DNA of 64,000 nt, from the NCBI GenBank assembly GCA_023231475.1, contig JALJEE010001503.1:1-64000 (forward strand). Reading direction: 5' to 3'. The stretch is from Seison nebaliae (taxonomy: Eukaryota). The notes beneath the pieces were generated by a model, which worked only from the letters and a program-made list of their open reading frames with translations, was not told the DNA's origin and ran no database searches. Position 1 is the stretch's first letter, and the number at the start of each line of letters is the position of its first letter. Of the stretch, positions 1-28,970 are shown piece after piece. The position numbers and the translations under genes are program-made.

Positions 1-1054
1 ATATGCATATGTGATTCTTTACTTGGGAACCCCTATTTCCATTACCAACTTCCGTACTATGATGTCGAATTTTAAAATCATATCTTATGTGTCGGATCTC
101 TTACGCTCAAAAATAGATCAGGCTAAATGATTCATTTCCGATGACTCACCTAGTGAATTATCCGTTTTCCTCTTTGATCAATTATCAAGTGATTATTATA
201 CTGTTTATTAGTAGTAGATCACTTGTTATTATTATTATTTTTTTTTTATTATAACAACAAATCTCCGGGGGGTAAATAAAATATAAAAGTAATAATAATA
301 TTTGACGGTCGATGTTTAACAATTCCTCAAATGTCCAAGCTTACTCTTTTACGAAAAAAGGGGGGGCTAAATTCTGATAACCGTTTATTATATGTGTAAT
401 GACTATAAAGATAATTAATAGATACAAGAATGTCATAGTTACCTCACACTTTTACCACCAGGAACCTGTCAGATGGTATCAACAGCGGCGCTACCGATCA
501 ACTCCTGATGCCATCTTAATCCCGATAATTAACTCTTAATCGCCCCAAATTAAGGAAGATGTTTAGGAATTCCGCATGTGATTAAGTCCCTTTTGGTAAA
601 CTTAGCTGACACACCCTGGCGTGTTAACTGAATTGCATGAACGTGTCCCCTATGATTAATCATCACTGTACTACTATAAATATAATTCGTTTCTACATTA
701 CCTCGCCACACTCATACATAAAATTCAAATTATAAAAATTATAATATCTTTATATCATGTGAGTATCAAAGTGAACTTTTTCACGTCATAGCATCTTATC
801 TTGATCAGTTCGAACAAATTGTCTCAAAATAGAATCTCCCATAAAAAGGATGTATTTGTTTCTTTCGATCTAAAACTTCTCACATGTCGAACTAATTCTT
901 CATAATATTTGCACCAACCAATTGAATTATTAAATTTACATGTATAATACAACCAGAGTTTGTTGATATAGAACCCTAACGGAATAATGTCCTTCATATC
1001 GTGCCGATAAATTTTAGTAAACGAATAATCATCTTCACTCATTGTTATTGATAT

Positions 1055-1255
1055 TACCCTAGTGTGAGTATAACTCATTTTTTTATAAAATAAATGAGTC
1101 TATAAGATTTAGTCGATGTTAACTCAAAACTAACAAAATAATTTATCAATTTTATTATTTCTAACTTACTTTTGAGTCCATATCGACTAAATCTTATAGA
1201 CTCTTTTTTTTTATAAAAAAAATATTTAAATTTGAGTTATACTCACACTAGGGTA
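1055..1255. mobile_element. Fold-back / MITE-like element with nested inverted repeats
   Basis: TACCCTAGTGTGAGTATAACTCA (1055-1077) is the exact reverse complement of 1233-1255. GAGTCTATAAGATTTAGTCGAT (1096-1117) pairs with 1182-1203, and ACTCAAAA (1122-1129) with 1170-1177. The loop is AT-rich. The terminal TA could be a TA target-site duplication. No transposase. Confidence 0.65.
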
Positions 1256-1506
1256 GTAATAATTCTACATATTCTCCGCAACATTCTGAACAACATGGCA
1301 AAGTGTCACTTAAAAGTTGTTCTCAGGATATTTCAAAACATTTCTTTTTTTTATCACATATGACGGTTGTTCTTTACAAATTTATTATATCATCTTATCC
1401 GCTTAATTAAATCAACTGGATTTAATATACAATGTAGGTAGTCGAGGTAATTGCCCTCCTAAACATATTCAACTGTTTTATCAACACTACTTTATCTAAT
1501 AGTGAT

Positions 1507-1572
1507 CGAACTATATATAGTTCGTATAATTATAATAAAGATCGTAGTTCTAGATCACTATAGTGATCTAGA
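1507..1572. repeat. Two adjacent perfect palindromes
   Basis: CGAACTATATATAGTTCG (1507-1524, 18 bp) and TCTAGATCACTATAGTGATCTAGA (1549-1572, 24 bp) are each their own reverse complement. Confidence 0.9.
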
Positions 1573-3714
1573 GACTAATAAAGTTCGTAGGAAAGAAATT
1601 TATAAAATGGAATAAGAAAGACCTTTTTATTATTATTCATCATTAATTATTTTGATTGATAAGAATATATATATATATTAGCATATATACTAGTATATAA
1701 TTCTAGAATTAATCATCAAAAAAAACCTATAATTATTGTGTAATTACCAGGATACTGAATAATGTGATATTATGTCTCAAGTGTTCATCGGTGACTTCGA
1801 TGTTGATTTCATGCTTTCATGATTTCGTTAGATGTCATGTTTATGCTTATAAGAAGGTTTGTGCTATTAAAATAGCATCATTCATTGGTCCGAATTATCA
1901 GGTTGTGTTTCAGTCAATATATGTACCTTCCTTATGTTGTACTGAAGATTCCTCCCGTAGCATTCGATATCATCATAATTCGTTCAACATTTGTGAACCT
2001 TCAGAGAGAAATATACCAGAAATTCTGTTGTCTTACAAATTTATTGTATATAAAACTTTTAAATTGCTTCTCACAAATCAGTTAATTAATCACCATTATT
2101 TTGTGCTTTCCTTCTTAACCGCTATGTCTACTTTTGTTCTGAATCGAAGTTTTGTAAAAGAGTGAAGAATAAAATTAGCTCACATACAGTTTATGTAAAT
2201 GAAAACAAAGTATCATAATCAAATTCATTTTTTTATAATAAATTTTTCAAACTCTCAAATTAGCAATTATTTTCAATTTCCTAATATTTTTTTATTGTTT
2301 AAAATCCCAATTTTATTGACAGATCTCATTTTTTACGATCAGTGATAGGACTCCTTTTCGTGAGGTTTTAGACTTGGAGTAACATGGGAACAGACGGCTC
2401 CATGATATATCGAAAAAATAATTTCGAAAATTTCCTTCTTTTTTTAAATTAATTTTAATTTCACTCATAATGCAACACATGTTAATTTCAATAACTTAAA
2501 GATTTGTACGTTTATATGCAACATTATCGCAAACCACATTGAGTAAATTAGAGAACTATACGAAAGAGAATGCGATTGAATTTTGCAAAGATTTTTTAAT
2601 AACTTTTTTCTATTTTCGTTTTCTTTAATTGTACAATAAAATTCTATTTTCTCTATACATTTTCTCGTTTTTCTCTTTATCAGGTTTGTCCGTTTTTGCA
2701 AAAAATAAGGAAAATGTCTGGTAGGAGTTTTTGTCTAAATTTTCAAAATGAACGGATTTACTTCATTTTTTTTAAAAAATACATCAGAAGGAAGGTCTAA
2801 AGTTATAAGTAAGGTTTAGAATAAAATAAAAAGTAGAAATAACTATGTTGTAGAGCATTTCGAGCTCTTTCCAAATATATTAAATTTAAAATGGTAAGTT
2901 AAATATTTCTGATAGAAAATGAGGTTTTAAAAAAAAGTTGAAAAAATTCGACTGCTCAGTTGATCAACTGCCTCATGTCCTACAATCGTAATTAATCATT
3001 GCCATAAGATGGACAGTAAAGAATGTCGGATGACAGACTATAGATTAACAGATTATCATCAACATAATTAAGTATACAATCAATCGCAAATAATAATGAA
3101 TGAAATGCTATGCATGGGTTGTTTATTGTTTTCTTAGTTAGTTTTCAACTGTTTATTAGGCAGATATAAGAATCATTCAATTTCTAAGAATCATTTTTCC
3201 ACCCCCGTTATAATCGTTACCTACTTTAAGTCTCACTCAAAATTATTAATATTAATTCACTAAACTTTCTCATTATTTTCGTTTAGTCGACTTGAATAGT
3301 CGCTGTTTATAAAATGATGACTCATTTAATTAATCGTAAAAAACGAACGTGATAAAGATTCGTCATTATTTATAGCCTGAGTATTAGGGTGTGTTAAAGT
3401 AGACGTACTAGTTAAATATACGAAAAACTAACGACAAAAGTCTAATAGAAGTTTCTAGAGAGTGTAAAGTGAAACGTAAACTGTAAAAGAGATAATAAAG
3501 CTCAATATTCAACTGTGAACGATACAAAAATGGGTGAATTAGACGAAAATCTCTTTTATTTTCCAGTTCTCTTCTGAATATTCTAGAATGGGGAACTTTA
3601 TATAATTGTACGAATGTTATTTTGTTGTCAACAATTTCTCCATATAAATTCTCATTAACTTTCTACATTTCGAATAATTTTCATTTCATACAATTAGTTA
3701 GAATATATTTAAAA

Positions 3715-5298
3715 ATGGGAAGGCTAATGACCAACTACTTCAAAGTTAATTGGAACGACGCTGATTCGTTTGTGGAATTCAAATTGAAATTCGATTTCCA
3801 ACGAATTCAATCAGTACCTCCCTTGAAAATGACAAGAGAACGCCGTTTAAATTGTTTCTTTAATTTGAAGAAACAACATACAATATTCGCCTTGGCGTTT
3901 TTCGACGGAGTCGATTCTGTGTATGTTCCACAAACTATACACAATGATGGTGATGATGATGATAAAATTATAAATGAATTCTCCTCTGATTATCATGAGA
4001 ATTCGCAGCATATAACGGTTATCGGACGACGGGAACGGATCATCGACATACGGAATGTTGAACTTCTAGTACAAATACTAAATAAAGCTCTACAAAGTAA
4101 TAAAACGCCTGAAAATGGTTTCATTCAATTCCCTGGAGATTGGTTTATCGACCGATCATTACGAATGTATGATCTGGGAGAAGGATTGGCACAATATTCA
4201 GTCGTTTACTCTAATATAGTTTCATATCACCAGAATTTATTTCATGTGTTGGATGTGAAAAATGATTATTTTCCTGTTTCACAAAATCTCGTGGATTTAT
4301 TTGAACTAACTTTCAGAAAAAGTCTGACAAATTATTTCCTTGAAGAAAATGCATCAGAAAGAATTAAATTTGAAAAAATGGTGCGTTATTATCAAGTGAA
4401 ATTTCGTGATCATCAATTCCCAATAAATTCCATTTCTAATAGAAATGTGAATTCCGTTAAATTTGGTAAAGACCAAACAATGATCAACTATTACAAAGAA
4501 GTTTGGAACTTGGATGTGGATGGAAGATATCCCTGCATCGTATCGGAGTACAAAAACACCACTACATATATTCCAATCGACCATTGTCGATTGGTGTTCA
4601 ATATGAATTTTAGAACAAAGTTGAGTTACGAACAAAAACGTAAAATTAAACTATTAAGAAATTCGAATAAACATTTTATATTCGAATATCGAAAAAAAAT
4701 TAACGAACAAATAAATTTTCAAAGATTATTTGGAATCAAATTGAATGTGGTTAAATGTCAAAAGTTTATTGGTGACGAAAATATTTGGAATTTCCATAAA
4801 ATAATTTATTTGGAAAAGAAAAGGAATAAAAGAGTAATAGAATTTGTTGGTCATGTGTTGCCGGTCATCAACGGCAAATTATGCGAAAATGAATATAAAG
4901 GATCGACCAATGCAAATTTGGATCAATTGCTTCTAGACATCGTACGAAAATATCCCAATCAATCACTTTGTGTGTTAATAGCTGGCGGAATAGATGGAAT
5001 AACAAATGAGCGTTATAATGATTTAGTGGAGAAATTGAACATTTCTCCCAATAATTATGCAATTGTGAAAGTTGACAAAATGAATCATCTGAAACTATTC
5101 GGTTTCTCAAAGAAGAAATTAGTGGGCAATATCATCGAGGAGAAGATAGTTGATGATAATGAATTCGTGTTAATGGGAAAGAAAATACCTGTAATCTTTG
5201 AAATGCAGGAGCCAACTAATTTTACTTTGACGACTCCATACGTCAAACAAATCAAAACCATCAGTTATCAAATGATGAGACTGATCCAAAGTAATTGA
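3715..5298 (+). CDS. Divergent, shortened Argonaute-family protein (N-L1-PAZ-L2 plus degenerate PIWI; MID apparently absent), ~527 aa, intronless
   Basis: First in-frame ATG is at 3715. Motifs occur in Argonaute order: TNYFKV and AFFDG (N domain); YDLGEG...LDVKNDYF (L1); TMINYYKEVWNL..RYPCIV....TYIPIDHCRLV (PAZ); KLSYEQ and FGIKL (L2); LIAGGID, IVKVDKMNHLKLF and GNIIEEKIVDDNEFVL (PIWI-like C-terminal blocks). Confidence 0.8.
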   Translation: MGRLMTNYFKVNWNDADSFVEFKLKFDFQRIQSVPPLKMTRERRLNCFFNLKKQHTIFALAFFDGVDSVYVPQTIHNDGDDDDKIINEFSSDYHENSQHITVIGRRERIIDIRNVELLVQILNKALQSNKTPENGFIQFPGDWFIDRSLRMYDLGEGLAQYSVVYSNIVSYHQNLFHVLDVKNDYFPVSQNLVDLFELTFRKSLTNYFLEENASERIKFEKMVRYYQVKFRDHQFPINSISNRNVNSVKFGKDQTMINYYKEVWNLDVDGRYPCIVSEYKNTTTYIPIDHCRLVFNMNFRTKLSYEQKRKIKLLRNSNKHFIFEYRKKINEQINFQRLFGIKLNVVKCQKFIGDENIWNFHKIIYLEKKRNKRVIEFVGHVLPVINGKLCENEYKGSTNANLDQLLLDIVRKYPNQSLCVLIAGGIDGITNERYNDLVEKLNISPNNYAIVKVDKMNHLKLFGFSKKKLVGNIIEEKIVDDNEFVLMGKKIPVIFEMQEPTNFTLTTPYVKQIKTISYQMMRLIQSN

Positions 5299-5569
5299 TA
5301 TGTTGAAAATTAAATTAAATTTTATTTCATTTTATTTAGTTCATTTATATAATTATATATTATAATTTTACAATATTTCATGTTCATTCCACTTTATTTT
5401 TCAATTTATTATTTTCAACAATTTTATTCTTTTCGTTGATATTCACATGTTATTTGTTGGTCCAATAGTGAACTATTGATTTGATGATAATTCTATAATA
5501 ATTTGTTCAATCGTTTTTATTGTGGATGATTGATATTGGGAGAAATAAGAAAATAAATAAAATAAATAT

Positions 5570-8500
5570 CTATTTCAATGTTTTATATAATGCAAATGCC
5601 ATAATAACAGCGACGGATGCACCAAGTGCGACAGGTCCCATCAACTTATTATCTTCTTGTTCGTTCAAGTCGCCAACATCGCCCGCTAAACTTTCCAATG
5701 AAGCCGTACGTCCAATTGAGGAGAATTGTTTCCACACAGTTGATCTTAATGGGAAGATTGGAAAGGTTGCTAACGCGATTAATTTCAAATAAATATGACG
5801 TCCCACATCCACATCGGCCGTTGTTGCTGACGAGAATCGAAGTGGTGGAGGTAAATTGAAGCGAAGACAAAATCCTTCAGGTTCCAAACGATAATTATCA
5901 TAAAAGTTTTGATAATTTGATGATTGTAAAAAAGCGGATTTATCCGAATGTGTTCCGATTATGAGACATGGAGTTCTCTTACCACCAGCTCGATTCAAAT
6001 ATTTCATAAAATAATTAGCGATATGAGCGAATGACGTTGGATTGGACATGTCATATAATAAACAGACGATCGTTGCTTCCACTTCCTTCTTATTCTCTGA
6101 TAATTCAATTGATATCTCCAAATTATTTTCACAATATAATTTCTCTCGTAATATCAAATATTTCTTTGATCCATAAACTGATAATAATCGAACAGATTTA
6201 TTCGGTATTAGATCTCGATCCACTTTCTCAAGATCTTCATTTGATCGACCTAATAGTCCTTGGATGAATGCCGTCTTCCCACATCCACGATCACCAATCA
6301 CGTCACATAGAACGATGGGATAATCACATCGATTTCTATTAATTCTCATTCGATTCTTATAATTATTCGATAAATTATTTGGATCTTCTCGATTCTCTCG
6401 TAGAGCCGTTATCAGAATATCAGACGTTGTCCATTTTTCCATAATCTCATCAATCTTCTCAGCTGATGAATTTCGTGCCATTTCATTCCGACAAGAATCC
6501 TGTATATAATCCAATGATCGTTTCAAATAAAAATGACGATATCCCATCAATCCGAAATATTTCACGACTAATTCCGGTTGGAAATATGATGCAATTCTAA
6601 TAAAACATTTAAATAATTTAAATAATTTAAATAATAATAATGATTAACATCCATTGATTGAGGAAAGCGGAGAATGTTATAATATTTCCTTTATTTCCAT
6701 CCATCTCATGATAGGCGGGAGGATTGGTTGTTGATAATGTTTCCTTCGTTCGATGAAGAAGAATTCTTGGACTGAAATGATGACGATTATTTGAATTATT
6801 CAAAATTGATGGGGTCGATTTACAACTGTTATGTTCCGATCGTATACTCGACAATGGAGTAATTCGATTATTCTTCTTCGTTTTGGAGTATGGACGGAAA
6901 CTGGAATCTTCTAATTTCTTTTCCGATTTCGACAGATCTTTCTTCGATCGAATATCAGAAAACGGTAATAATGGCATCGATGGAATATTTAATGCGAAAG
7001 AACGATGAACCATTTGCTTCGTACGTCGTGAAACTTGAGCACCGAATAAAATGCTGTGAGGTTTCTTCGAATTATGGATTGATAATCTCGAAATTTCTTC
7101 ATTAACTCCATCATCATCTGGATCGTCATCGATATCGATATCATGAATTTCTCTTCCTCTCACCATTAATTTTCCGTCATTTAATCTCATAAATCGTCCA
7201 TGACGACGATGATTATTTTTGATGGAACATGAATGATGAATATCTCGCATCATCCATGGTGGTCCGTCATGACAGAATGTGGAGAACATGATAAATAAAT
7301 CGGCTTCATTCATAAAATTCTCTTCCATCGTAACATTTAATCGATATCGTTTAATATGAATGAGACGATTGAAAAAATATTTTGAACTTTTAAGAAATTC
7401 ATCAGATCTCTGTCCATTTGATGCAAAACGTTCAAATAAATATAAGAGGAAAGAATATCCGTCGATGGACAAAGTAAACTTTTTATCAGGAGAAATATTT
7501 GAGGTTGAAATGAAATTTTTTTCGATCAACAAATCGAAATTATAACCGAAATGTCTGAGAATGCTCCAAACGGTTTCTTGTCGACTCTTTTCGAGATAGA
7601 GACGTTGTAAAGAAAAGAATCCCGATTCGTCACAAATATTTTTCAATTTCATCAAATTATTTTGTCGTTTATCATATTGATCTTCATCGATATATGTAAT
7701 TCGAATTGATCGAATCGATTGTTTCAGATCGTTCAATTCCGTATTAGAAAGAAGAGATTTGAAACAAGCTAATTGAAGTAGTTGAAGTTCATTATCGTCT
7801 AAAAAATTGTCACCATCCAAATCACAAATTGAGAAGATTCGATGAAGAGCTTGTTCGCATTTCAATGAGAGTTCTCGAGAATTTAAATTATAAATTAAAT
7901 TGATTGGATATAAAGCGAAGTTTTGAGCTAATTGAAAAAGTTGGAGGACATTCCTCATCGTTACTGCTGACGTATGAATACATGCATGAATTTGAGAGTA
8001 AGTTCGAAATAATGATTTTAATCCATCATCATATTGTGGTAATTGAATGGATCGATTTTGAGTAGATGATGAAATAAGTGGAAGAACACAATCACTCTTA
8101 TTCCCAACAATTAATATCGTCGGCATTTTATGAAGATAATGTGCATAATGATTCTTTAATAACGTTTCAGAATCGGTCGATGTTACTGTTGTTGTTGTTG
8201 AGGGAAGACGGATTAATTCGATGAGAGGAAGCCAATAAGACTCGAGATTTTTTTTCGAATTATCATCAATTAACGAATAAACTAAACAAATGGAATTAGC
8301 ACGACGAATTTGATCATGTAGAATGTCTTCATCGTCAATCTCCGAATTATAATCCACAATTAATGTGGGACGATTCTCACTCGTCACTTCCGCTGGGACG
8401 GTAATCGTTTCTGCTTTTTTCGGCACATTCAATTGGATAGACGTAGTACTCAATCGATTTAATGATGTTGTCGATTGGAACTTTTGAAAAAAAAATAATT

Positions 8501-8700
8501 TAATTAAATTAATAAAATAATTATAACGATGTTCGTAGTATCATCTTCATTGATTAAGGCGAATATGAGTGACGTCTTTCCAACATTAGCTTAAAAACGA
8601 GAAAATAAATGAATTTGTTGAGAATGTGAAAAAATCACCAACAATCTCCAATGAGAAGTATTCTAATTTCATTATTCTCCTCTTCCCAATCGGATGTCAT
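5570..8700 (-). CDS. RHOT: Mitochondrial Rho GTPase (Miro), 4 exons
   Basis: Spliced N-terminus MTSDWEEENNEIRILLIGDSNVGKTSLI. EF-hand RIFSICDLDGDNFLDDNEL, second GTPase VIGDRGCGKTAFIQGLLG, and a C-terminal TM anchor. Introns at ~8643-8591, ~8528-8482 and ~6648-6597. Confidence 0.93.
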
Positions 8701-9927
8701 TTGAAAAACATGAGAATAATTTCATCAGATCATCAGAACAATTATTGGTGATGAAAATGAGATAATCAAAAGTAAATACAATCCGCGTACGCATTAAATA
8801 ATATTAAATCATTTGATGGAACAAAGATTATTTAAATTAAAAAAAAATTATCTTCCTAATTCAATTAGCTTCAGATTCGAATGAACAAAATCTTCCTTCA
8901 ACTGATAATTCACATTTTATTTATAATCAACAAAAAATCTCAAATCTGTCACTTTTTTTTTTGAGGAGGAAATAATAATTACGCCTCTTATCCTCTAATC
9001 GTATTTCTCTAATTTACCATGATTAATCACTTGAGACGAATTGTTGATATATAAATTATGTTCAAATTTCATTCATTTCAATCGAACATTTTACTAACAA
9101 TTCTGTTATTATTAGTTTTCTCATACACCCGTCAATTCCTTTATATATGATGACTATCGATATTTAAGTCTTCACAATATTTACTTACTAATTAAATGAT
9201 TGAATGAATTATAACATTCTGCCCTTCTCTTATTGAATTAATTAAATATTCAATCAATATTCTTTCTTTATTCCTTCATAATTAACATTCTTTCAATAAC
9301 TTTTCCATTAAACATAATTTTTTGGATAAGAATATTATTTTCCTGAATTTATGAAACTTTAACTCATCAAATAAATAAGGAAACATTCGAAAAATTAACC
9401 GCATAATCATGTTATGTGTTAAGATCTATAGAATATTTTCGTTTATAGAAATCAGAAAATCTGATCTCTAAAATCTCATCTGGTAAATAACGAGTTTTAA
9501 ATTAAAGAATTAGAAAGGGGAATATTTTATAACAAGAAGTAATTTATACAGTAAATTTTTGTAAAAAGACAAGCTTCGTTTTTAATTTTGTAAAAAAATA
9601 ATAAATAATTTCAATCATAAATAATAATTATTATTATCCAATGGGTGATAAATTGTTTGGTTTGATGATGGTAGAAAATAATTGAAGAAATATAAAGAAT
9701 AAAATTGCTTATTTGTTTTATTGAGCTTCACAGTTAGTTAGGAGCTGAATATTTGAAATAAACAAATCCATATTAACTTAATATTATAATCGTTTGAACT
9801 TTTGAAGTACTTTGTCGAAATTGGACATACAACGTTTTCTAACACAACGACGCACATTTTCATCAAACGTTTCCAGATTCCTTAACCATCTTTTTTTATC
9901 TTCCCACTAAAAGGTAATTGAATTAGA

Positions 9928-11463
9928 ATGGTAACAATTGACGAATTGTATAATTGTCACAGGGAATTGTGTGAAATCGATGAGTCTGATTCGGAAAGAA
10001 ATAAATTCGTTAGTTCATTTCTTCTCCTTTCTTTGATGAATGTTCTCTTGAAGAAAAGTTATTATGAAACAATTATTTCGGGAACATCTTCCGCAAATAG
10101 TGATTGTAAACGATTAGCGATAAATTTCATCGAACAATTTTATGGTAAATTTCCTGATTTGCAGAAGAAGGCAGTGAAGGCTCTCTTCGATAATTGTGCC
10201 GATGACAATATTGTTGTGAGGAAACAGGCAGTGCAGAAGTTACAACGAATGTGTACCATCACACCAATCATTTTACCACATGTGTCGAAGATGTTGACTC
10301 AAATTCTCCAAACAAACGACACCAAAGAATTGGAAGCTGTCAAAGAGAATCTTCATCGTTTATATGAAATGAAACCGTTCGAATGTATTCAATCGATATT
10401 GACGGAAATAAAAACGAATGATACAGATCAAATGTATTTGGTGAGAAAGCGTGGATTGCAAGTCATTTCCGATTTTATTCGAACTTCAAATTCAAAAATT
10501 TTAACGAATGAAATTGAAAAGTTCTTGTTGGAGGAATTGAATATTTTCCTCCAAGACGTCAATCATGAAGAGTTCTCTCTCGTGATTAAATTGATGAGAC
10601 AATTCTCTTCCACCACCACGTTATTAGGAAGGAAACAATTGTTGAAAACGATCGAAGAACAAGCAGAATTGGATAAGGAAATTTCGTCGAAAGGAAATGA
10701 AGAGAATGACGGAGAAAATGAAAGAAATGAAAGAATCGATATCGTTCTCACTTGTGGGAAGGAAGCAGTGATGATCGTTTCGAAAAATGCTCCGTCTGAT
10801 TTATTCGTTAAATTTTTCATCGAAAATTTATTGAACAATTTCGAATTGTTAACACAGTCAAAAAAGATCGAATGTCTTCGAACTCTAGCGCAACTGACCA
10901 TTTCTTATTCATTTAATTGTCAAGAGAGAATGTTGGAATATCTCAAAACTTTCATCGACACCTTCTCCCGTCAATTACAATTAGACAAAGGAGATAATAC
11001 AACAGAATTATTATTGAAAATCGAATCAAATTTAGACATGTCCATCGTCGAACCATTAATCTATCTCATACATCAATTCGGGAAACAACGACCGAAATTT
11101 TTGTCGGAATTCCAAACGAATGAAAATGAAGAATTATTTAAAAAAGAATATGTCGATCTATTTATGAAGAAAGTTCAATGGCTCTGTCATTGTTCGAAGA
11201 ATCTTTTAAAGAAATTAAATTCATCCAACGACGAATTGATAACGAGAATTGTTAAAGAGAACGGTAATAAAATGACGGGAAAGGAAATGATCAGTTGTTC
11301 GAATAATGTGACGGAGATCTGTCTCGATCTCTTACATCGTCCACCCATCTATTCGGCCCACTGTCATTTCTCTTGGGAGAAATTCGATGCAGGAACGAAA
11401 CGAACTAGTACCACCGTTACCACCTCAAGAAGAAAAAATCGACATATGTACAATGTCCGATAA
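9928..11463 (+). CDS. API5: Apoptosis inhibitor 5 (API5/AAC-11)
   Basis: MVTIDELY start, KRLAINFIEQFYGKFPDL, DDNIVVRKQAV, LQDVNHEEF, DLLHRPPIY...FSW. A probable in-frame 45-nt intron lies at 10009-10053 (GTTAG...TGAAG). Confidence 0.9.
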   Translation: MVTIDELYNCHRELCEIDESDSERNKFVSSFLLLSLMNVLLKKSYYETIISGTSSANSDCKRLAINFIEQFYGKFPDLQKKAVKALFDNCADDNIVVRKQAVQKLQRMCTITPIILPHVSKMLTQILQTNDTKELEAVKENLHRLYEMKPFECIQSILTEIKTNDTDQMYLVRKRGLQVISDFIRTSNSKILTNEIEKFLLEELNIFLQDVNHEEFSLVIKLMRQFSSTTTLLGRKQLLKTIEEQAELDKEISSKGNEENDGENERNERIDIVLTCGKEAVMIVSKNAPSDLFVKFFIENLLNNFELLTQSKKIECLRTLAQLTISYSFNCQERMLEYLKTFIDTFSRQLQLDKGDNTTELLLKIESNLDMSIVEPLIYLIHQFGKQRPKFLSEFQTNENEELFKKEYVDLFMKKVQWLCHCSKNLLKKLNSSNDELITRIVKENGNKMTGKEMISCSNNVTEICLDLLHRPPIYSAHCHFSWEKFDAGTKRTSTTVTTSRRKNRHMYNVR

Positions 11464-11981
11464 AACTGAGAAATAATTTGTTTGACAAAATCGAATTCTT
11501 TTTTAAATTTCTTTCCAAATAATTCAAGTTATTTCGATAGAATTTTCCATTACAAATTCGTTTCTTTCCCTCAATTCTGAAAACATTTCATTGTGTGAAT
11601 AATTTAAATGTGGACAATGTGAAAATTTGAGTTATTGAATTTAAGTTGTAGAATTGTTACAAAGAAATTATTTCGAGAAGTTGATAATTTTTTATGGAAA
11701 GAAAGAAATTGGCTGAATATTTGCGATTGGGAAATGACACATTCAAAAATAAGTAAGATATTAACAGCATCAAATGGAGAGACATGAAAAGTATAAAATG
11801 GAAATTGAATGATGGGGATGTGTCGTTAGAAATGAGAAATTATCAAGAAGGAAAATCATTCAACATGAGAATGTGATAACGAATAAGAAGGATAATAAAT
11901 AAAAATAGAAATTAACTATGACACAAGTTCGGAGATATTTTTAAGGAACTTGAACTTTTCATTAAATGATATTATCAAGTT

Positions 11982-12035
11982 TGTGTGTGCTTGTGTGTTT
12001 TTTTGTGTGTGTGCGTGTGTATGCGTGCGTGTGTG
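11982..12035. repeat. Imperfect (TG)n microsatellite, probably in the FMR1 3' UTR
   Basis: The run tgtgtgtgcttgtgtg...gtgtgtgtgcgtgtgtatgcgtgcgtgtgt is seen directly. Confidence 0.7.
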
Positions 12036-12545
12036 GAGGAGAAAGAGAGATGATGATGATGATAAACATGATAATTTTAAAGAATTATTTAATGAAATGA
12101 AAATCATATACTCGATAATGAAATGAAGAATAAGTTTTATAAGTAGAAAATAATTATTAATTTTTCAAAAGAAAAACTTTTTTTTTCAATTCTTTTTATC
12201 TGCATTCTTTATCGATTTCGTCTTTCCGATTTAAAGACTACGACATATTTAAGATGGGGATAGATATTAGCAGATAGATGTGAATGAATGTGTGAGAGAC
12301 ATCGAAGTTCTCGGATAGAATTGTGGGATGTTAATCAAAACGTTCATTATATTTTTCCGGGTAGCAATATGATGGTGAATGATGAAATGGAAAAGGAGAG
12401 AAATAAAAGATAATTGCAAAAATGAAAGGAAACGACGGTATTCTTTGTTATGAATTGTGTTAAATAAAAAAAAAAGTGGGGAAATTCAATGATTATACGT
12501 TTTTATATCTCATTTATTTATAACACACCACATCATCTTCAACGA

Positions 12546-15067
12546 TCATTCGACATCTCGATTATTAAATTTCTTCGAACTTTTCATTTCTCCTCGTCGA
12601 TTGGGTCTTCGATTATTCTTATCATTAGATCCATTTATTAGATGAGAATAATAATTATTATTGTTATTATTATTATTATTATTGTTTATTGAATTCGGAT
12701 ATTGTTGAGGATGATTATATGAATGTGGTTGTTGTTGTTCTTGTTCTTGTTGATGATGATATGATGAGTTATTATTATCGAGACTATTATTACTATTAGA
12801 AAGCGATGTTGTTGCATTATGGTTGACAGTGGAGTAATTGCTTCCACTCATCGAACCACCATTCGACATATTTCCCGTGTTATTATATCGCCTTCGATTA
12901 TTATATCGACGATCATCTGAAACGGAAAATTAATTAATAATAAAATCACAATAATTAAATAATAATAATTTTGTCAAGAGTCAAAGAATTTTTTTAAAAA
13001 AATTTGAGAAAAATAAAATTCCTTTCGATTGACAATCGACGAAAGAAGTAGAAATTGAGAATAAGGTGAGAGATTAAGGAAAAATTAACAGAAAAACAAT
13101 CAACAAGGTCATCAAACATCAAAAGAAACAATTATATCTATTCATATTATCTATTTTCTGATATCTTTCTCCTGACACTCATATATCAATCTCACCTCAA
13201 TGTCGAGATATTATTATTTGGTCGGAAAGTGAATTTCCTATGTTGTCCTCTCGACATTCTTCCTCGACGATGATATCCGCCTCTTTTACGACGATTATTT
13301 CCATGTACAGAAGATGTATCTGATTGATATGCAGTTCCAACACCAGTATCAACTGACGAATAACTGGTATATCGATCAGTAGCTAAGCCGTCAACAAAAG
13401 CTTTTTTAGATAAATTAAATTTAAAAAAAAAAAATAATTTTTCATCATTCAGCACACACTAACCATAATTGGGATTCTTATTATTGTAACGTTGATTACC
13501 ACCTGATTGTCTAAAAAGATAAATATTAAATAAATAAATTAATTCGTAATAAATTTTCAAATTTTAACTGATCGTCACGATGAATACCATTTTCATTTTT
13601 CTTCCGTATTTGTTCATGCAATTCCGTTTGTTTTATTCTCATTTGGTCGATATCCTACAAAAAATGAAGTTAAATGAAAAATTGAAATTAATTTGGAAAA
13701 ACTTTCAAATGTTTGATGTGATGAAGGAGCATCGTTCTGGCAAGATCAACATTTTCTTTCGTTCCAATAAAAACAAATTGCACACAATTATCCGTATTGT
13801 CAATTGATGGATCGATTGTCTGCCAATCGATTTTCGCATATGTCATATATTTCTCATCCAATTCATTCGATTCATTCGTTCCATCTATCGATGATTGTGA
13901 TATATTATCTGCATTATGGAGATTCATATCATTTCCATCACTCCCATTATCATCATTATGGATCTTCTCTCCTTTACCATCTTTACTTCCATCAATTCGA
14001 ACTCGAATCACATTTGAACGATCGACAATTTCCTGCATAACTCGTCCGTTCTTTCCGATCACTTTCCCCACAATCGGTTGTGGCACTAAAATTGAACAAT
14101 GAATATATTCCATAATTGCACGTGCTTCTGCCACCGCCTCTTCTGTATCTCCATAAATTGTAATGACATTTTTCAACATTTTATTCTCCGAATCTGAATT
14201 AACTTCAATTCCACGAATTCCCAACAATGTCTTTGCTTTCGTAATATTCGTACCACGTGAACCAATCGCTAATCCCACAAGTGATGGAGCGATATGAATC
14301 TTTTCAATAAATGGACATGTTCCATATGTCAAAACAGATGCATCTTTTTTCTTCACTTTTTCTGAAAAAGACAAAAGTTGTTTTTCCATATGTAATTCTC
14401 GTCGTTTCATTTCCAATTTCTCATGACAATGACTAGTTAACATATCTAACAATGCTTCACTCTTCTTTCTTGTTCCCATATCTAACGAGAGTATGGAGAC
14501 TTGTCTAGTGGATGGATCGTAAGAAATATAAGCGGCATCTAATCCATCTTTAATATTTTCCATTTCTGTCTCGTCACCAAATGCGTCAGCATTTTCTTTC
14601 TTTACATTCATTTTATGAGAATAAATTTTAAGTTTCGTTAAATCTTCTTTTGGTAATTTCGCTCGTACACTTGACTCATCGAAAATATCCTGTTTCTCCG
14701 TTTTCGATAATTTAAAACTGGCCGCATAAACGTTATTGGTGATCTTTTTGCATTCAGCCGTGTGCCAACCACACAATTTATTCTTGTTCGATTCGTCATT
14801 ATAATAGACTTCAAATTGATCTCCCACATTAATAATTGCCGACGATTTAGTCGGTAGAGTTAATTCCGTTCGATTCAAATTCAATGGTTCCATCCAATTA
14901 TTTTCAAATTCAACTTTCAATTCATCTCCATTCACTTCTACCACATTAACCTGTCATGATTGGAAATAGGAACGACGAATGAAAAGAAACAAATCGCCAA
15001 CCGTATAATATACTTCCTCATGTAAATATTCGAATTTGAGATCATTTGATGAATTCATTTTATCCAT
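12546..15067 (-). CDS. FMR1: Fragile X RNA-binding protein (FMR1/FXR family): Agenet/Tudor, KH1-KH2, RG-rich and N/Q-rich tail
   Basis: [30 protein letters not shown] (KH1), [26 protein letters not shown] (KH2), [13 protein letters not shown] at 15067. Multi-exon; the 3' exon structure (stop at 13192 versus 12546) is uncertain. Confidence 0.92.
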
Positions 15068-16065
15068 TAAAATCCCAAAGAAATATTTCTGAAATGTTTC
15101 TAAGGAAAAAGATTCAAGAAAAAAAGATATGAATCTTCCGAAATTATCTGTCTAAATTAATTTGAATGAACGATCATTTTATGAGGGAAATCGTCGCGAA
15201 TTATTAGGAAAGGAAACAGAATATATTCCCTAAATATACTTCTACTTCTACTTCTTCTTCTTCTTCCTTCGTCCCATCAAAGATACAATTTGAAAGAAAA
15301 ATATTTTCAAAATAATTTATTACAAATTATTTTTCATTTATTTCCTTCAAATTTTTTAGAAAATATTTTTTGGAAATTTGGTGAAAGATGATACATATCT
15401 TGATCAGACGGAATGATAAGAGGAATTAGTTAGGAAGGAAGGAAGGAAGGTAAGAAATGAATGATCGATTACGGTAATATATCGAACGTTTGAAAATGGA
15501 ATATTTGTGATATAACACTAGGGAGAAGAAACAGTCGAACGGTTAAGGCAGAAAAAAGCTTACTTGTAAAGATTACAAGAGAAAACAATTACTTCAGTTT
15601 TTTCTCCATCTCTCATATATACAATATCTCTTTGTCTGTATATCTTCAACTAAACCTTCTGGAAAGATTTCCTATTGTGCTCTAAACATATTCCAAATAA
15701 TTCACTGATTCATGTAAAAAATTAAGGACGATTAAAATCGAAGCTCACTCTTCTCGCTAACTGCTTTCCAATTCATCAAGAAAAGCTTAGGTACTGCGAT
15801 TGCTTTCGTTCTTTGACATCCCATGGTGACCGTATAATTAATTATTTCCCATATGGAAAACAAACAAACAGTTCCATTTCACATGTGTTCCTTTTTTTTT
15901 TCAGATGACGAACCTTTTTGAAATTAATGAAAAAATTTAAAAAGTATTTTGAAATTTTTTGAAAAAAAAAATATTATTTCAAAAATTTCAAACTTTTAGC
16001 TTATACCCTCACACATGTTTCCTCTTTAAATTATTCACGTTTTTTTTTCAAATTCCCATACAGAT

Positions 16066-17289
16066 ATGTATCTGCTATTTGAGCATGCTTCCGGGTATGC
16101 TTTATTCAGAGTGAAAGGATTAGACGATATTGGTAAAGATGATCGTCAAATTGAAGATAGTTTCTCTTCATATGAGAAATTCAAAACGACAAGTAAAATG
16201 ATTGCATTTGCTGCGTTTACAAGTGGAGTGAATGCATTGGAAAATTTGAATGCCATATCAGAAGGAGTTCTCCATCCTGATTTGAAATTGTTTCTTGATA
16301 CTTATCTTCCGAATAAGAAACATATGTTGGGCGTATCCGATCAACGATTAGCAGCCACATTGAAAGAGACTTATGATATTTCCATTCAAACTGGTGGTAA
16401 TGTCCAAGAGATTACTCGATGTATTCGAAATCATTTCCATCATTTCGTTGAGAAGTTAAATGAGAAAAGTAGTGAAAAAGCACAACTTGGTCTTGGTCAT
16501 GCTTATTCTCGATCAAAAGTCCAATTTAATGTTAATCGTGTCGATAATATGGTTATTCAATCAATCGCCTTATTAGATCAATTAGATAAAGATGTGAATA
16601 CATTTTGTATGAGAATTCGAGAATGGTACGCTTATCATTTTCCCGAATTAGCGAAGTTAGTTCCAGATAACGGAAATTTTGCGAAATGTGTATATCTCAT
16701 TGGCGACCGAAATCATATGGAACAGATTGAAGATATTCAAGAGAAATTGAACGAGATATTAGAAGATGAAAATATAACAGAACAAATTTTAACCGCTTCC
16801 AAAACCAGTATGGGAATGGATATTAGTGAATTGGATTTAATCAACATCAAATCTTTCGCTAGTCGAGTAAAGAATTTAGCTTCATATCGAATTAAACTTC
16901 AAAAATATCTTCATGTCAAAGTTGGAAATGTTGCTCCAAATCTTTCAGCTCTTATTGGTGATCAAGTATCAGCACGTCTGATATCACATGCTGGTAGTTT
17001 GACGAATCTGGCGAAACAACCAGCTAGTACCATTCAAATTCTTGGAGCTGAGAAAGCATTGTTTCGAGCATTGAAGAAAAAAGGAAATACTCCTAAATAT
17101 GGTTTGATTTATAAAACAACATTTATCGGAAAGACTCCAATGAAAGCGAAAGGAAAAATTTCGAGATTAGTCGCCAATAAATGCGCCATCGCATCTCGAT
17201 TAGACGCTTTCTCTGATGATCCGACCGTCGAACATGGATTGGCAATGAAAGAGACAATTAACGACAAGATAAAAGATTTGAAACTTTAA
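16066..17289 (+). CDS. NOP56: Nucleolar protein 56 (box C/D snoRNP), intronless, no C-terminal tail
   Basis: LFEHASGYALF, ALENLNAISEG, AQLGLGHAYSRSKVQFNVNRVDNMVIQSIALLDQLDKDVNTF, STIQILGAEKALFRALK. Confidence 0.96.
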   Translation: MYLLFEHASGYALFRVKGLDDIGKDDRQIEDSFSSYEKFKTTSKMIAFAAFTSGVNALENLNAISEGVLHPDLKLFLDTYLPNKKHMLGVSDQRLAATLKETYDISIQTGGNVQEITRCIRNHFHHFVEKLNEKSSEKAQLGLGHAYSRSKVQFNVNRVDNMVIQSIALLDQLDKDVNTFCMRIREWYAYHFPELAKLVPDNGNFAKCVYLIGDRNHMEQIEDIQEKLNEILEDENITEQILTASKTSMGMDISELDLINIKSFASRVKNLASYRIKLQKYLHVKVGNVAPNLSALIGDQVSARLISHAGSLTNLAKQPASTIQILGAEKALFRALKKKGNTPKYGLIYKTTFIGKTPMKAKGKISRLVANKCAIASRLDAFSDDPTVEHGLAMKETINDKIKDLKL

Positions 17290-20200
17290 TTTAATATTTT
17301 TCTCGTTGTATATTCTACATTTGAACTGATTTCATTTCTCTCTAATTTTCTTCTTCAATAAATCATTTATCATCATTCATCTCTTATTTTTCATTTTTTT
17401 TAATGAAATTCCATTTCTATAATCCATTATATTTTCATTCTAACAACTTTCTTTTAATTAATTTTAATAATTTTACAATTGCCGATCGGAAATTATAAAA
17501 ATTTAAGAACGAATATGACTATTCTAAATTATAATTTTAAGTATATTTTTCATTGTCAAACATAATTTCCAAACATTTGGTAACTTAATTTTTCGTGGAA
17601 GTATTATTCTTATTGATTAGTGCTCGTAAATGATTAAGTAGAAATGATATTAATATAAATATTTATATTAATATTAATATTATAAAATATAATGTTATGA
17701 AATAGAATTGACTGTTTATATTAAACATAAAACAATTTAAGTTGTCTTTTTATCTCATATTAAGTTATCTTATTACAGACTCTTCTTTAAAAAGGGATGG
17801 TCATTTAATCGATTGATTTTGAGATCTTCTTTCTGATTTATGAAATTATTGGATTATGACTGATAATTAAATTGTGAAAATCGCGAGAATATTTGCGGAA
17901 GAAACATAAAAAAGAAATTTGCGAACGAATAAACTTTTGTTTGAGTTTTTAGGGTAAAATGGAGGAAATATGAAAATGAAAATTTCACGTCGAAAAATTT
18001 ATCTATTTTAAATATTTGTCGATCACCATGGTAAAAGCGTAAAAAGTTTGTATCAATATGCATCGTGTAGAATTTATCATTCGACTGTTTTTTCGCACAC
18101 TTAGTCAGTGAGAATGGATACATTCCATTAAAGAATCCACTAGTAGGAATAAACAATAAAAATGGTAAAGTGAATGGATAAATTTCGTTTGTTTCCATAT
18201 TCGTTTGTGTTAATTGTCGAGATTGTGAACGTTCTGGAAACATCTGGTAAAGAACAATTCTTTTTATTTATTAGTGCCATTAACAGTCATTGATATTACA
18301 CAGCAAATAGAGAGGTGTTCGTGTGAATGTGTAAAAAGTTTCCATCGTTCTACAGTTAATTTTGGGAAATTATTCTTGAAGATAAATCCAAATTAATGAA
18401 TTAACAAATAGTAGGATCGAAAGATTTTAACAAATCTCATTTCACACAATTGATGAGGTAGAGCAGAGACGATGCTCATGACTTAATTTTTGATATTTCT
18501 CCTCAAACCGTATAAAGCGGTAAGATGTTGCACATCCTCTTTTATTCATTAATCACTGGAACGGAAAAAAATCAGAATAAGAAACGAGTGGCGCCGCCTG
18601 TTTCTACAGTTTCCGATCGAAAAAGTAGTCCCGTTTAAATCCTGTTTATTTTGACATGATATTGTTGTGATTCGGCATGAGGCATTGAGGCGAGAATGTA
18701 AAAGAAAGGTAAGATTGAAAAGTTGACAATGGAAAAGCAGATGAGAATCAAAGAAGATACTGAAGATAAAATCTTCAGTCCATAAACAAATGATTCAGTT
18801 TGTAATGTCAAACACAATTGATCGATAGGAACATATAAATTGATGGAAATTTCATGATTTATATGAAAACTTTCTATGATTAGATATTCATTTCATTTGT
18901 ACAAAGGAAATCATCATTCTTTGATCAAATGATTTGTCATTTATATGAAGAAATATGAGAGAAAGTAGAAAGAAATTTTACGGCAATTTCCCACACACAA
19001 AAGATGATATTCCAGTCAAAATAGATAATTCATTTGAACAACCGGAAAATTTCACGTCTCAATAAAATTCTTTGAATTTTTTTTAAAAATCTGTCCATCT
19101 TTTCTTTACACATTTTAGTAGACGAACAATTTGTTTCTTAAAACATCAAATGAATTTCATCATTCCTATACAAATGTTTCCGACCACTCATGAAGAAAAA
19201 AATGATTTTTTTATAGCTCGAAATTCTTCCCCAGCTACAAATGTTCAACATTTTCAAATCGACATTCAAAATTGAAAGATTTTCATTTTCTCATCGTTCC
19301 TATTATTTATTCGTAATCGACATTCACATATATGCTAATCATGGGAGAACTGACTTTGCCATTGACGAAAGAGAACGGTTCAATTTTCAGGTAATGAGAA
19401 TCATCATTCCATTTGACAATTCTTAATATTTATTCAATCTCATAAATTATGTTTGACTTCCCTCACAACAAAACAAATTTTTCTCAAGTCCATTTTCTTG
19501 TTGGCAATTTAAATGATCTTTTTTTACTTTTTACTAATTCCATTCAATTTATCAAATTATCATGTCCTTCTTGTTTCGTTGCGTTGTATTTGAGGGAAAT
19601 AAGAAATTAGCTATTATTTTCTTCATCGAAATCGATAGTCGATATGTGACCTACGATTGATACTTAACACCTAAACGAAGCTGAGATCTCCTTTCACAGT
19701 CTCACAGTAAGAAATTATCGGCTCTCAGGAATCCATTCGGAAAGTTTCTTCATTTTTTTATTCAAATTATTAACTTTCGGCATTGTTCATCCAATTGGCT
19801 CAGGGGACAGCCTAATCGACGACTCCATTTGCATTGTCGATTGTTCATTGAATTGAGAATGAACCGCGATTAATCCTGCTGTTCTGGTGGAAAGAAGAGA
19901 AAGAGAATGAATAAACGTTTCAAATGAATAATTATTATAATCGTCCTCCTTCTCCACCAAACAAATTGACGAAAATTATTTTGAACGATCAATTTCGTAT
20001 TTGAAAGAGTAATTGGGAGAAGGGTAATCATGTACCACTAGATATCATCAGATGATCACCATCAACATTTGGTTCAAGTGTCACAGATTGTCTATTGAGA
20101 AAATCAATATTGGATGGACCTCTAATCATTTTCGTCACATTTCTCTAATCGATGGTGAATGGTCGAGAATAAATTCATATTGAACTCCTCCACATATTTA

Positions 20201-27747: not shown

Positions 27748-28970
27748 GAAGTAGTAGTAGTTCTCCAATATTTGAAGCAATTGATGAAATCATAGCGAAT
27801 AGGTAAATGGATAACTAAGGAAACTAATGTACTAAATATTGGTTACATAGCGTTTTAGTGAACTATTTCGCTTTTGAAAGGGATCGATGCAGATTATGGG
27901 TGCAAGAAAGAATGGAAAGTAACAGAAAATTCATTTAATTTTCGACCAGAAAGAGAATTGAAGCGTTAAGAATATACGAACAGAAAATGTCCCGTTTCGC
28001 CCATTCACCAAGAAGAAAACACAGATCGCTATTCACATCCAATTTCCCTTTTCCTTTCAACTTTTCATATGTAGCGAATAATGGATGATGATGATATTCT
28101 AATGAAATCACTGCAATGATTCAATATGTTTTGATTATGTACCTTTTCTCCTTTCTAATTTAAATATTCATTGATACTCTTTTTGATGGTGAATCATGTC
28201 GAAAAGTGTTTTCATCAACAATTTGATCTTTTCACTTCGATACCTGAATTATTTATTTCACTTTCTAAACTTCTCATCTCATTTCTTGAAAATATTAATG
28301 GGATGATTTAAATGAATATATCCGGACAGTTAAAGGAGAGAAAGAGGAACTATAATAATATCATTCTATGTCTAACTGACGAATGGGAGATATGAGTAAC
28401 TTTCGTTTTTTTTTTACTTTTAGTCAATTCATTTGAATAAAATATATTATTTGATAAGGAATTGACCGATGTCTGCCCATGTCGTGTGAGGATGAATTGT
28501 CCAATTAATCGATATTGGTCGAGAATTGGACTAGGTTAAAAGAATATTAATTAATGTTCTTTCGCCCAGATGTATGGGAAGAGAATTGGACGGTTTGGTT
28601 AAGAAATGGGCAATATGTAAACGACGAAAATAAGATTTAATAAGCGACGTATAGTGTACGTAGAGATATGGATTTATTTCTACGTATAGATGAGTAAGAT
28701 TAGACGAAAACTATTAATGAAGAACGTGTATAAAATTAGAGTGTAATGTTTGCATCTAAATAAATTTATTCAGTCGTCTTCATATGCAAGTAAACCAATG
28801 AAGCGTGGATGATATTTGGGGAGAAGTTCTAGCAAAAAAAAAATAAATATTTATCATTCTTACTATCATTCTTAACTTTAATAGACGGCCAATAATAGCA
28901 ATCATAGGTAACGCTCGATAAATAGAGTTGGATCTCTATTGACGATTGGAAACCTCAAATTCGAATTATC

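What the first reader, a model, noticed from the sequence alone, without database searches (positions are those of the whole stretch)
3715..5298. Intact mini-Argonaute lacking the MID domain, with a dead PIWI domain
Seen: a 527-codon ORF with no stops or frameshifts, carrying N, L1, PAZ and L2 motifs in order. Only ~40 aa separate the post-L2 ENIWNFHK motif (~4780) from PIWI-like blocks. The usual RDG is LIAGG, the KRHHTRLF block is KMNHLKLF, and the protein ends before the conserved PIWI C-terminus. Established: eukaryotic Argonautes are ~850-1000 aa; MID and the C-terminus bind the guide 5' phosphate, and the DEDH tetrad slices. Inference: this protein could hold small-RNA 3' ends through PAZ but could neither anchor 5' ends nor slice. 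It may be a new class of small-RNA sponge, loader, dsRNA binder or dominant-negative regulator. This is roughly the opposite architecture to prokaryotic short Agos, which keep MID-PIWI. The L1 DLGEG motif suggests AGO-clade origin.
Basis: partly seen in the sequence, partly recalled or inferred. Interest (0 to 1): 0.9.

Follow-up and report, generated by a model that had tools for sequence, protein, structure and literature searches.

The report
MID-less mini-Argonaute that keeps its PAZ
A small animal, likely a seisonid rotifer, carries an intact gene for a cut-down Argonaute that has kept its RNA-end-gripping PAZ half but lost about 200 internal residues, including room for the guide-anchoring MID domain, so it is predicted to bind small-RNA ends without being able to load guides or cut targets.

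Summary
The 527-codon ORF is real. One unitig in each of two studies' DNA runs spans it with no differences, and no MID/PIWI exon exists elsewhere in the window. N-L1-PAZ is confirmed. Only aa 420-490 are detectably PIWI-like. From PAZ end to the KxxH block there are 146 aa, against 346 in the nearest full-length relative, so MID cannot fit; the C-terminal histidine region is also gone. New evidence: a 62%-identical partial second copy, and two intact full-length relatives named Seison nebaliae. The two short copies diverged without stops (0 of 1200 neutral simulations did so). L1-PAZ stayed conserved while the PIWI remnant decayed. Best reading: a lineage-specific, selected, PAZ-centred Argonaute derivative that likely binds small-RNA 3' ends without guide loading or slicing. 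Expression and function are untested. It is a new variant of a known kind.

The parts
3715..5298 (+). Single-exon ORF, 527 aa (P0001), internally deleted Argonaute derivative
   Evidence: the second copy P0003 starts at the matching Met, which favours the ATG at 3715 over the database model that starts at codon 39 (P0002)
3715..4134 (+). N domain (aa 1-140); the N-terminal extension that full-length relatives carry before it is absent
   Evidence: BLASTP to P0004; ArgoN E 0.0019, below cut-off; alignment A4
4135..4299 (+). L1 linker (aa 141-195), with the DLGEG motif shared with P0004/P0005; most conserved part between the two short copies (74.5%)
4300..4641 (+). PAZ domain (aa 196-309); F250, Y259, Y260, P273, T284, Y285, P287 and C291 are identical in both short copies
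4642..4971 (+). Basic stretch (aa 310-419) that cannot be placed on L2, MID or PIWI; the large deletion lies in or at the end of it; aa 310-393 are 43% identical and colinear in P0003
4972..5184 (+). Degenerate PIWI remnant (aa 420-490): D427-G428 (likely the RDG aspartate, codon 4993-4995), K455/H458/F462, G471; three diagonals with offsets 255, 267 and 275 imply two further small in-frame deletions
5185..5298 (+). Unplaced tail (aa 491-527) and stop; no histidine, so no fourth catalytic residue and no conserved Argonaute C-terminus
5299..5569 (.). 271-nt AT-rich gap to the convergent Miro-like gene; polyadenylation-signal-like hexamer at 5309; no room for further Argonaute exons

Best explanation
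This is an intact, lineage-specific Argonaute derivative that has kept N-L1-PAZ and lost MID and most of PIWI, and it likely works as a guide-independent binder of small-RNA 3' ends beside the animal's intact slicing Argonautes. Shown: the open frame, the PAZ domain with its conserved aromatic positions, the loss of about 200 internal residues, the decayed PIWI remnant, the missing C-terminal histidine region, and divergence from a second copy without stops. Inferred: origin by duplication from the divergent, siRNA-type AGO lineage of P0004/P0005; a translated protein; no 5'-phosphate anchoring, seed presentation or slicing; PAZ gripping 2-nt 3' overhangs of Dicer duplexes or free 3' ends, which would buffer or hand over small RNAs for the full-length paralogues; the PIWI remnant kept only as a structural base.
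For: Not an artefact. Of 1.84 billion representatives, the only hits besides its own record are P0003 and full-length P0004 (3 hits at E <= 0.001). P0004 is AGO-clade: E 8e-125 to human AGO4 against 8e-43 to Siwi. Selection: P0001 and P0003 are 62% identical over 393 aa with both frames open; 0 of 1200 neutrally evolved pairs (59-68% identity) were stop-free; their substitutions are more conservative (mean BLOSUM 0.21) than in any simulated pair (means about -0.5, maximum 0.04); changes avoid conserved Argonaute columns (p 0.04). Asymmetry: in L1-PAZ, P0001 is closer to P0004 (48 of 169 columns) than the six plant and virus-borne outgroup Argonautes are (30-41), whereas in the PIWI remnant it is far below the outgroups (17 of 64 against 34-42). 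The remnant still has coding-like codon use (0.24 +/- 0.07 in frame against -0.49 and -0.29 off frame). Isolated PAZ binds 2-nt overhangs tightly (0.9-2.0 nM as quoted in the review PMC9262622, passage). G471 corresponds by motif to human AGO2 G733, a universal structural glycine (PMC12477606, passages; the mapping is my inference).
Against: No RNA or protein evidence. P0003 ends at its contig edge (1289 nt), and aa 310-419 cannot be placed, so it is not shown that the second copy shares the deletion or that selection still acts today. P0003 is a gene model whose DNA I did not see, so there is no dN/dS. In Drosophila Ago1 and Ago2 the N-PAZ lobe adds nothing to guide affinity in vitro (PMC3597821, Results part 1 and Discussion part 1), which weakens a sponge for single-stranded small RNAs. 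The R-K-Y positions of the DmAgo1 PAZ6 set appear changed here (H-Q-F by the alignment; register uncertain). The tree puts the short pair with P0004/P0005 at only 80/84 support, with long branches meeting, and the rival grouping is not rejected (p-AU 0.21). The C-terminal region has no confident model (pLDDT under 50).
Confidence: 0.5

Rival explanations
1. A decaying duplicate: a fast-evolving Argonaute copy that was selected in the past, lost MID and its C-terminus, and is now silent or drifting but has not yet gained a stop.
For: Single exon, no expression evidence, known from one lineage; the second copy is cut at its contig end and may continue as a longer gene; identity falls to 43% after PAZ. 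For aa 394-527, 1825 of 3000 neutral runs stay open at 0.02 substitutions per site, so recent death cannot be excluded.
Against: The PIWI remnant is far more decayed than any outgroup Argonaute and carries at least three deletions, all in frame; only 52 of 3000 neutral runs keep aa 394-527 open at 0.2 substitutions per site; 0 of 1200 stop-free neutral pairs; no variant inside the ORF among the differences listed for two DNA runs (34 further rows were not shown).
Confidence: 0.2
2. A co-opted scaffold: the protein is kept for protein-protein contacts (for example with Dicer, chaperones or granule proteins) and no longer binds RNA in a way that matters, as proposed for the Argonaute-fold protein Med13.
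For: L1 (74.5%) and N (64%) are as conserved between the copies as PAZ (68%). Med13 keeps the fold but is judged unlikely to bind nucleic acids in the Argonaute way (PMC12477606, passages). The N-PAZ lobe contributes little guide affinity (PMC3597821).
Against: The PAZ aromatic positions are identical in both copies, and the post-PAZ stretch is strongly basic (pI 9.96). No partner is known.
Confidence: 0.2
3. One half of a split Argonaute: an N-lobe protein that pairs in trans with a MID-PIWI-only protein encoded elsewhere, as short prokaryotic Argonautes do with APAZ partners.
For: The retained lobe is the complement of MID-PIWI; prokaryotic precedent (PMC6299218, passages).
Against: The protein keeps its own PIWI remnant, which would occupy the partner's place (inference); no such partner in the 64-kb window. 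The rest of the genome could not be searched.
Confidence: 0.06
4. An assembly or gene-model artefact: a full-length Argonaute collapsed by mis-assembly or completed by unseen exons.
For: The database model of this gene starts at a different Met, so annotation here is imperfect.
Against: Independent unitigs span 2943-6140 without a difference; a six-frame profile search and tblastn of the window find no other Argonaute piece; PIWI-like sequence sits in frame inside the same exon; a convergent gene starts 271 nt downstream.
Confidence: 0.03

Closest known systems
Divergent full-length AGO-clade proteins named Seison nebaliae SNEBB_008915 (P0004, KAI3378394.1) and SNEBB_001627 (P0005); siAGO-like by inference
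   Same: N-L1-PAZ order, shared DLGEG and G-R/K-Y-P motifs, best full-length match in the whole library
   Different: They are 861-862 aa with L2, MID-length spacing, full Piwi (E 1e-92) and intact catalytic motifs; this protein lacks about 200 internal and about 65 C-terminal residues
SNEBB_002751 (P0003, KAI3388329.1; partial hypothetical protein)
   Same: 62% identical and colinear over aa 1-393; PAZ only in Pfam
   Different: Record ends at its contig edge, so its C-terminal architecture is unknown. It is likely a paralogue (the published 43.9-Mb assembly holds one strain, PMC8351084 section 6), but an orthologue from a diverged strain is not excluded
Argonautes reported to 'lack MID' in Acari (PMC7659050) and Lophotrochozoa (PMC11114477)
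   Same: No ArgoMid profile hit
   Different: PMC11114477 (section 6) found that in most cases the region was degenerate, not deleted; even full-length P0004, P0005 and P0010 miss ArgoMid. Here the residues are physically absent
Short and truncated prokaryotic Argonautes with APAZ partners (PMC6299218); PAZ-less Leishmania PIWI-like protein (PMC3528672, abstract listing only)
   Same: Naturally truncated, non-slicing Argonaute derivatives
   Different: They keep MID-PIWI and lose PAZ; the few that lack MID also lack PAZ. This protein is the reverse
Med13 (Argonaute-fold subunit of the Mediator kinase module; PMC12477606)
   Same: Argonaute-derived protein without canonical guide binding
   Different: Med13 keeps the bilobed fold and is ancient and widespread; this protein loses the C-lobe, keeps a canonical-looking PAZ and is known from one lineage

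Membership tests
Eukaryotic Argonaute (AGO clade), canonical RISC effector | PAZ domain | tested here: met
   PF02170 above cut-off; fold match Z 12.6, rmsd 2.4, 107 aligned
Eukaryotic Argonaute (AGO clade), canonical RISC effector | N and L1 domains before PAZ | tested here: met
   BLASTP aa 4-307 to P0004, E 5e-17; hhalign probability 97.6; ArgoN E 0.0019 below cut-off and no ArgoL1 hit
Eukaryotic Argonaute (AGO clade), canonical RISC effector | L2 linker | tested here: inconclusive
   aa 310-365 against the L2 profile at chance, 1139 and 1145 of 3000 shuffles
Eukaryotic Argonaute (AGO clade), canonical RISC effector | MID domain (5' phosphate pocket) | tested here: not met
   146 against 346 aa from PAZ end to the KxxH block; MID profile at chance, 100-134 of 200 shuffles. 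One 14-aa window resembles the MID-end helix (p 0.005 uncorrected) but is not supported when both copies are scored
Eukaryotic Argonaute (AGO clade), canonical RISC effector | Complete PIWI domain with conserved C-terminus | tested here: not met
   No Pfam Piwi hit; only aa 420-490 significant; 72 against 139 aa after the KxxH lysine
Eukaryotic Argonaute (AGO clade), canonical RISC effector | DEDH catalytic tetrad (slicing members) | tested here: not met
   D427 probably matches the RDG Asp; no His after aa 458; MAFFT puts D408 on the first Asp but both models make that stretch helical and the scan score is weak (p 0.18); no glutamate-finger match found
Eukaryotic Argonaute (AGO clade), canonical RISC effector | AGO-clade rather than PIWI-clade ancestry | tested here: met
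   All 7 PDB sequence hits at E <= 10 are AGO-clade, though none is significant; nearest full-length relative is AGO-clade; the tree held no PIWI-clade row
Eukaryotic Argonaute (AGO clade), canonical RISC effector | Loads a small-RNA guide and silences targets | not testable with these tools
   needs immunoprecipitation and biochemistry
Argonaute pseudogene | Stops or frameshifts | tested here: not met
Argonaute pseudogene | Neutral divergence from its closest copy | tested here: not met
   protein-level simulation, 0 of 1200; covers aa 1-393 only, no dN/dS
Argonaute pseudogene | Not transcribed or translated | not testable with these tools
   needs RNA-seq or proteomics of this organism
Short prokaryotic Argonaute / split Argonaute | MID-PIWI without PAZ, with an adjacent N-lobe or APAZ partner | tested here: not met
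   PAZ present, MID absent, no partner in the window

The most novel reading that the evidence does not exclude
An animal has evolved a small family of guide-free 'PAZ-lobe' Argonautes, the mirror image of short prokaryotic Argonautes, that grip Dicer-product ends and act as dedicated chaperones or competitors controlling what the slicing siRNA Argonautes load, in a lineage reported to lack RNA-dependent RNA polymerase. Surveys that require both PAZ and PIWI profile hits would have missed such proteins, so they may be more widespread.
Probability: 0.3. Interest if true: 0.75.

Novelty: new variant of a known kind. Interest (0 to 1): 0.5.

Why it matters
Natural Argonaute truncations described in the papers I saw keep MID-PIWI and drop PAZ. 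A selected animal gene with the opposite layout would be a natural test of what the N-PAZ lobe can do alone, a question so far addressed with engineered deletions. Rotifer Argonaute counts have required both PAZ and PIWI hits (PMC7943196, methods passage), so proteins like this fall outside those surveys. The reach is limited for now: one lineage, one full and one partial copy, no expression data.

Tried and rejected
Expression: no RNA holder listed; two short-contig runs of another organism laid nothing; neither is evidence. Single-sequence AlphaFold gave mean pLDDT 32; with an 11-row alignment only the PAZ region (about aa 191-293) reached pLDDT 50 or more, so fold searches tested PAZ only and say nothing on the C-terminal fold. 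A two-chain fold of aa 1-350 with aa 395-527 gave 'no answer'. ESM Atlas unavailable. No whole genome held. Longer homologues: none of 4973 candidates (weak evidence). Profile-profile comparison of the C-terminal part alone: E 0.18; phmmer of it against PDB: 0 hits. Registers considered for aa 355-415 (MID start, MID-end helix, PIWI strands 1-3, the helix before RDG): none stands out; the best fit was template 632-690, reached by 0-5 of 300 shuffles among 18 post-hoc tests, and ungapped scans were at chance. Hand-picked register scoring was not done. Searches of viral and metagenome contigs found no close relative (none; 2 plant-type Argonautes). A motif scan gave 1 viral and 10 prokaryote-genome loci, of which 4 held Argonaute pieces. 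Rfam 1-20000: 0 matches. Literature: ten searches listed no paper on this gene or on a natural eukaryotic N-L1-PAZ Argonaute with MID deleted; most hits were seen as listings only and the library lacks most subscription papers. The supplement of PMC12256650 was held cut; the searchable part had no SNEBB, AGO1 or AGO2 entry. Supplements of other papers were not read and may list this protein.

Full report
Setting. The window is AT-rich (26-35% GC) animal DNA: the ORF's neighbours are Miro-like, API5, KH-domain, NOP56/58-like and C2H2 zinc-finger genes. The nearest named relatives of the protein are Seison nebaliae records, so the organism is likely a seisonid rotifer. That is an inference from homologues. 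No whole genome was held.

The ORF is real. 3715-5298 (+) translates to 527 aa without a stop. In each of two DNA runs from two studies a 3198-nt unitig covers 2943-6140 with no differences or gaps, at single-copy depth; one of them may be the window's source, so they count as at most two studies. A six-frame profile search of 1432 stop-free segments and tblastn with full-length Argonautes found no other Argonaute piece in the 64 kb; the second-best tblastn match of both P0004 and P0005 lies inside this same ORF, in frame, at about 4990-5165 (E 0.078 and 0.052). A convergent gene ends 271 nt after the stop.

Front half. Pfam finds PAZ above its cut-off. BLASTP aligns aa 4-307 to the 861-aa Argonaute P0004 at E 5e-17, covering N, L1 and PAZ. 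An alignment-guided model is confident only in PAZ and matches Argonaute PAZ structures. F250, Y259, Y260, P273, T284, Y285, P287 and C291 are identical in both short copies. T284-Y285-I286 corresponds by alignment to the T-Y-L half of the Drosophila PAZ6 mutation set (PMC3597821, Results part 1); the R-K-Y half appears changed. That these aromatic positions line the 3'-end pocket is recalled knowledge.

Back half. I built a profile from 9 Argonaute sequences (8 full-length, 1 partial; 2 seisonid, 5 plant-type, 2 others; shallow and hand-weighted). The whole post-PAZ region scores above chance (28 and 7 of 3000 shuffles). The signal comes from PIWI (0 of 200 shuffles in four settings) and not from MID (100-134 of 200); 0 of 62 control segments reach it. 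It is confined to aa 420-490 (6 and 1 of 3000, a range chosen after the scan), on three diagonals. L2, aa 310-419 and aa 491-527 are at chance. Absence of ArgoMid in Pfam means nothing, since full-length P0004, P0005 and P0010 miss it too and published 'MID-less' calls were mostly degeneration (PMC11114477 section 6). The argument here is length: 146 aa from PAZ end to K455 against 346 in P0004. From PAZ end to D427 there are 118 aa where P0004 has 306, of which MID alone is about 145. After K455 there are 72 aa against 139, and no histidine. MID and the PIWI-helical subdomain together form the 5'-phosphate site, and the latter carries the fourth catalytic residue (PMC9262622 section 5), so loss of guide anchoring and slicing follows by inference.

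Relatives. Searches of 5.8 billion clusters and 1.84 billion representatives returned only the gene's own record, P0003 (403 aa, partial, 62% identical) and P0004. P0004 has an 87%-identical twin, P0005; both have a full Piwi domain with catalytic motifs and are AGO-clade. A tree of the N-PAZ region (10 rows, P0011 left out, no PIWI or miRNA-type animal AGO rows) joins the short pair to P0004/P0005 at 80/84 support across long branches, and an alternative is not rejected. Origin from that lineage is likely but not proven. Syndermata are reported to keep an endo-siRNA pathway (PMC11114477, abstract passage), and seisonids to keep piRNAs but lack RdRP (PMC12256650, passages).

Selection. P0001 and P0003 are 64%, 75%, 68% and 43% identical in N, L1, PAZ and post-PAZ. 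In 1200 neutral simulations at similar identity none was stop-free (mean 12-17 stops), and none had substitutions as conservative as observed. In L1-PAZ the protein is closer to P0004 than the six outgroup Argonautes with that region are (48 of 169 against 30-41), but in the PIWI remnant it is far more distant (17 of 64 against 34-42 for seven outgroup rows), although PIWI is the best-conserved part between P0004 and P0005 (91.5%). So PIWI decayed deeply, with several in-frame deletions, while the frame stayed open and coding-like and the PAZ lobe was preserved. Limits: P0003 is colinear through aa 393 (0 of 2000 shuffles) but stops at its contig edge; since aa 310-419 cannot be placed, the large deletion may lie beyond that point, and P0003 is not shown to share it. 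Recent loss of function is not excluded.

Mechanism. I commit to guide-independent binding of small-RNA 3' ends by PAZ, most likely 2-nt overhangs of Dicer duplexes, in an accessory role to the intact paralogues (0.5). For it: tight overhang binding by isolated PAZ as quoted in a review (PMC9262622, passage), and the conserved PAZ positions. Against a sponge for single strands: the N-PAZ lobe adds no guide affinity in Drosophila Argonautes (PMC3597821). Rivals are a decaying duplicate (0.2), an RNA-independent scaffold like Med13 (0.2; PMC12477606, passages), a split-Argonaute half (0.06) and an artefact (0.03).

Comparison and novelty. It descends from AGO-clade Argonautes but fails the MID, complete-PIWI and tetrad tests, so it is not filed as a canonical Argonaute. 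Prokaryotic truncations keep MID-PIWI, and the few without MID also lack PAZ (PMC6299218, passages). The human AGO2-ex1/3 variant is N-truncated (PMC9363364, abstract); a MID-less wago-4 allele is a laboratory deletion (10.1101/235713, one passage); Acari 'MID-less' Ago2 calls rest on Pfam domain scans (PMC7659050, one passage). Ten literature searches listed nothing on this gene or layout (see Tried and rejected). Unchecked notes from this scan describe archaeal RPA proteins carrying an Argonaute N-lobe, a possible parallel that I did not test. PMC8351084 (passages and section 6) reports two diverged strains in the named species, which leaves paralogue versus strain orthologue open for P0003. 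Verdict: real, unusual, probably selected; new variant of a known kind; function untested; interest 0.5.

Noticed in passing
L003:823-3489 (IMG/VR contig IMGVR_UViG_3300036778_000018, 51 kb): An intact, intronless 888-aa eukaryote-type Argonaute ORF (N, L1, PAZ, L2, Piwi) sits directly beside a BRO-family gene and a per os infectivity factor gene, so it appears to be an Argonaute carried by an insect DNA virus.
   Followed up: partly
window 1047-1263: Long inverted repeat (63-nt arms, 86% complementary) with about 50-fold summed depth in DNA runs; looks like a MITE-type dispersed element.
   Followed up: partly
window about 2600-2960: Second dispersed repeat just upstream of the gene; other contigs share 2815-2956.
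   Followed up: no
window 5570-8453 (-): Miro-like GTPase gene (EF-hand-associated and GTPase matches) with a long low-complexity insert, convergent with the Argonaute derivative.
   Followed up: no
window 28926-33170 (+): 1414-codon open stretch with an N-terminal CABIT domain and a long low-complexity tail.
   Followed up: no
L007:1272-4119 and L009:1-908: Spliced-looking eukaryotic Argonaute fragments inside contigs of bacterial MAGs, probably contamination.
   Followed up: no
window 3715-3829: The database protein for this gene (P0002) starts at codon 39 and misses the first N-domain strand; the second copy supports the upstream ATG.
   Followed up: yes
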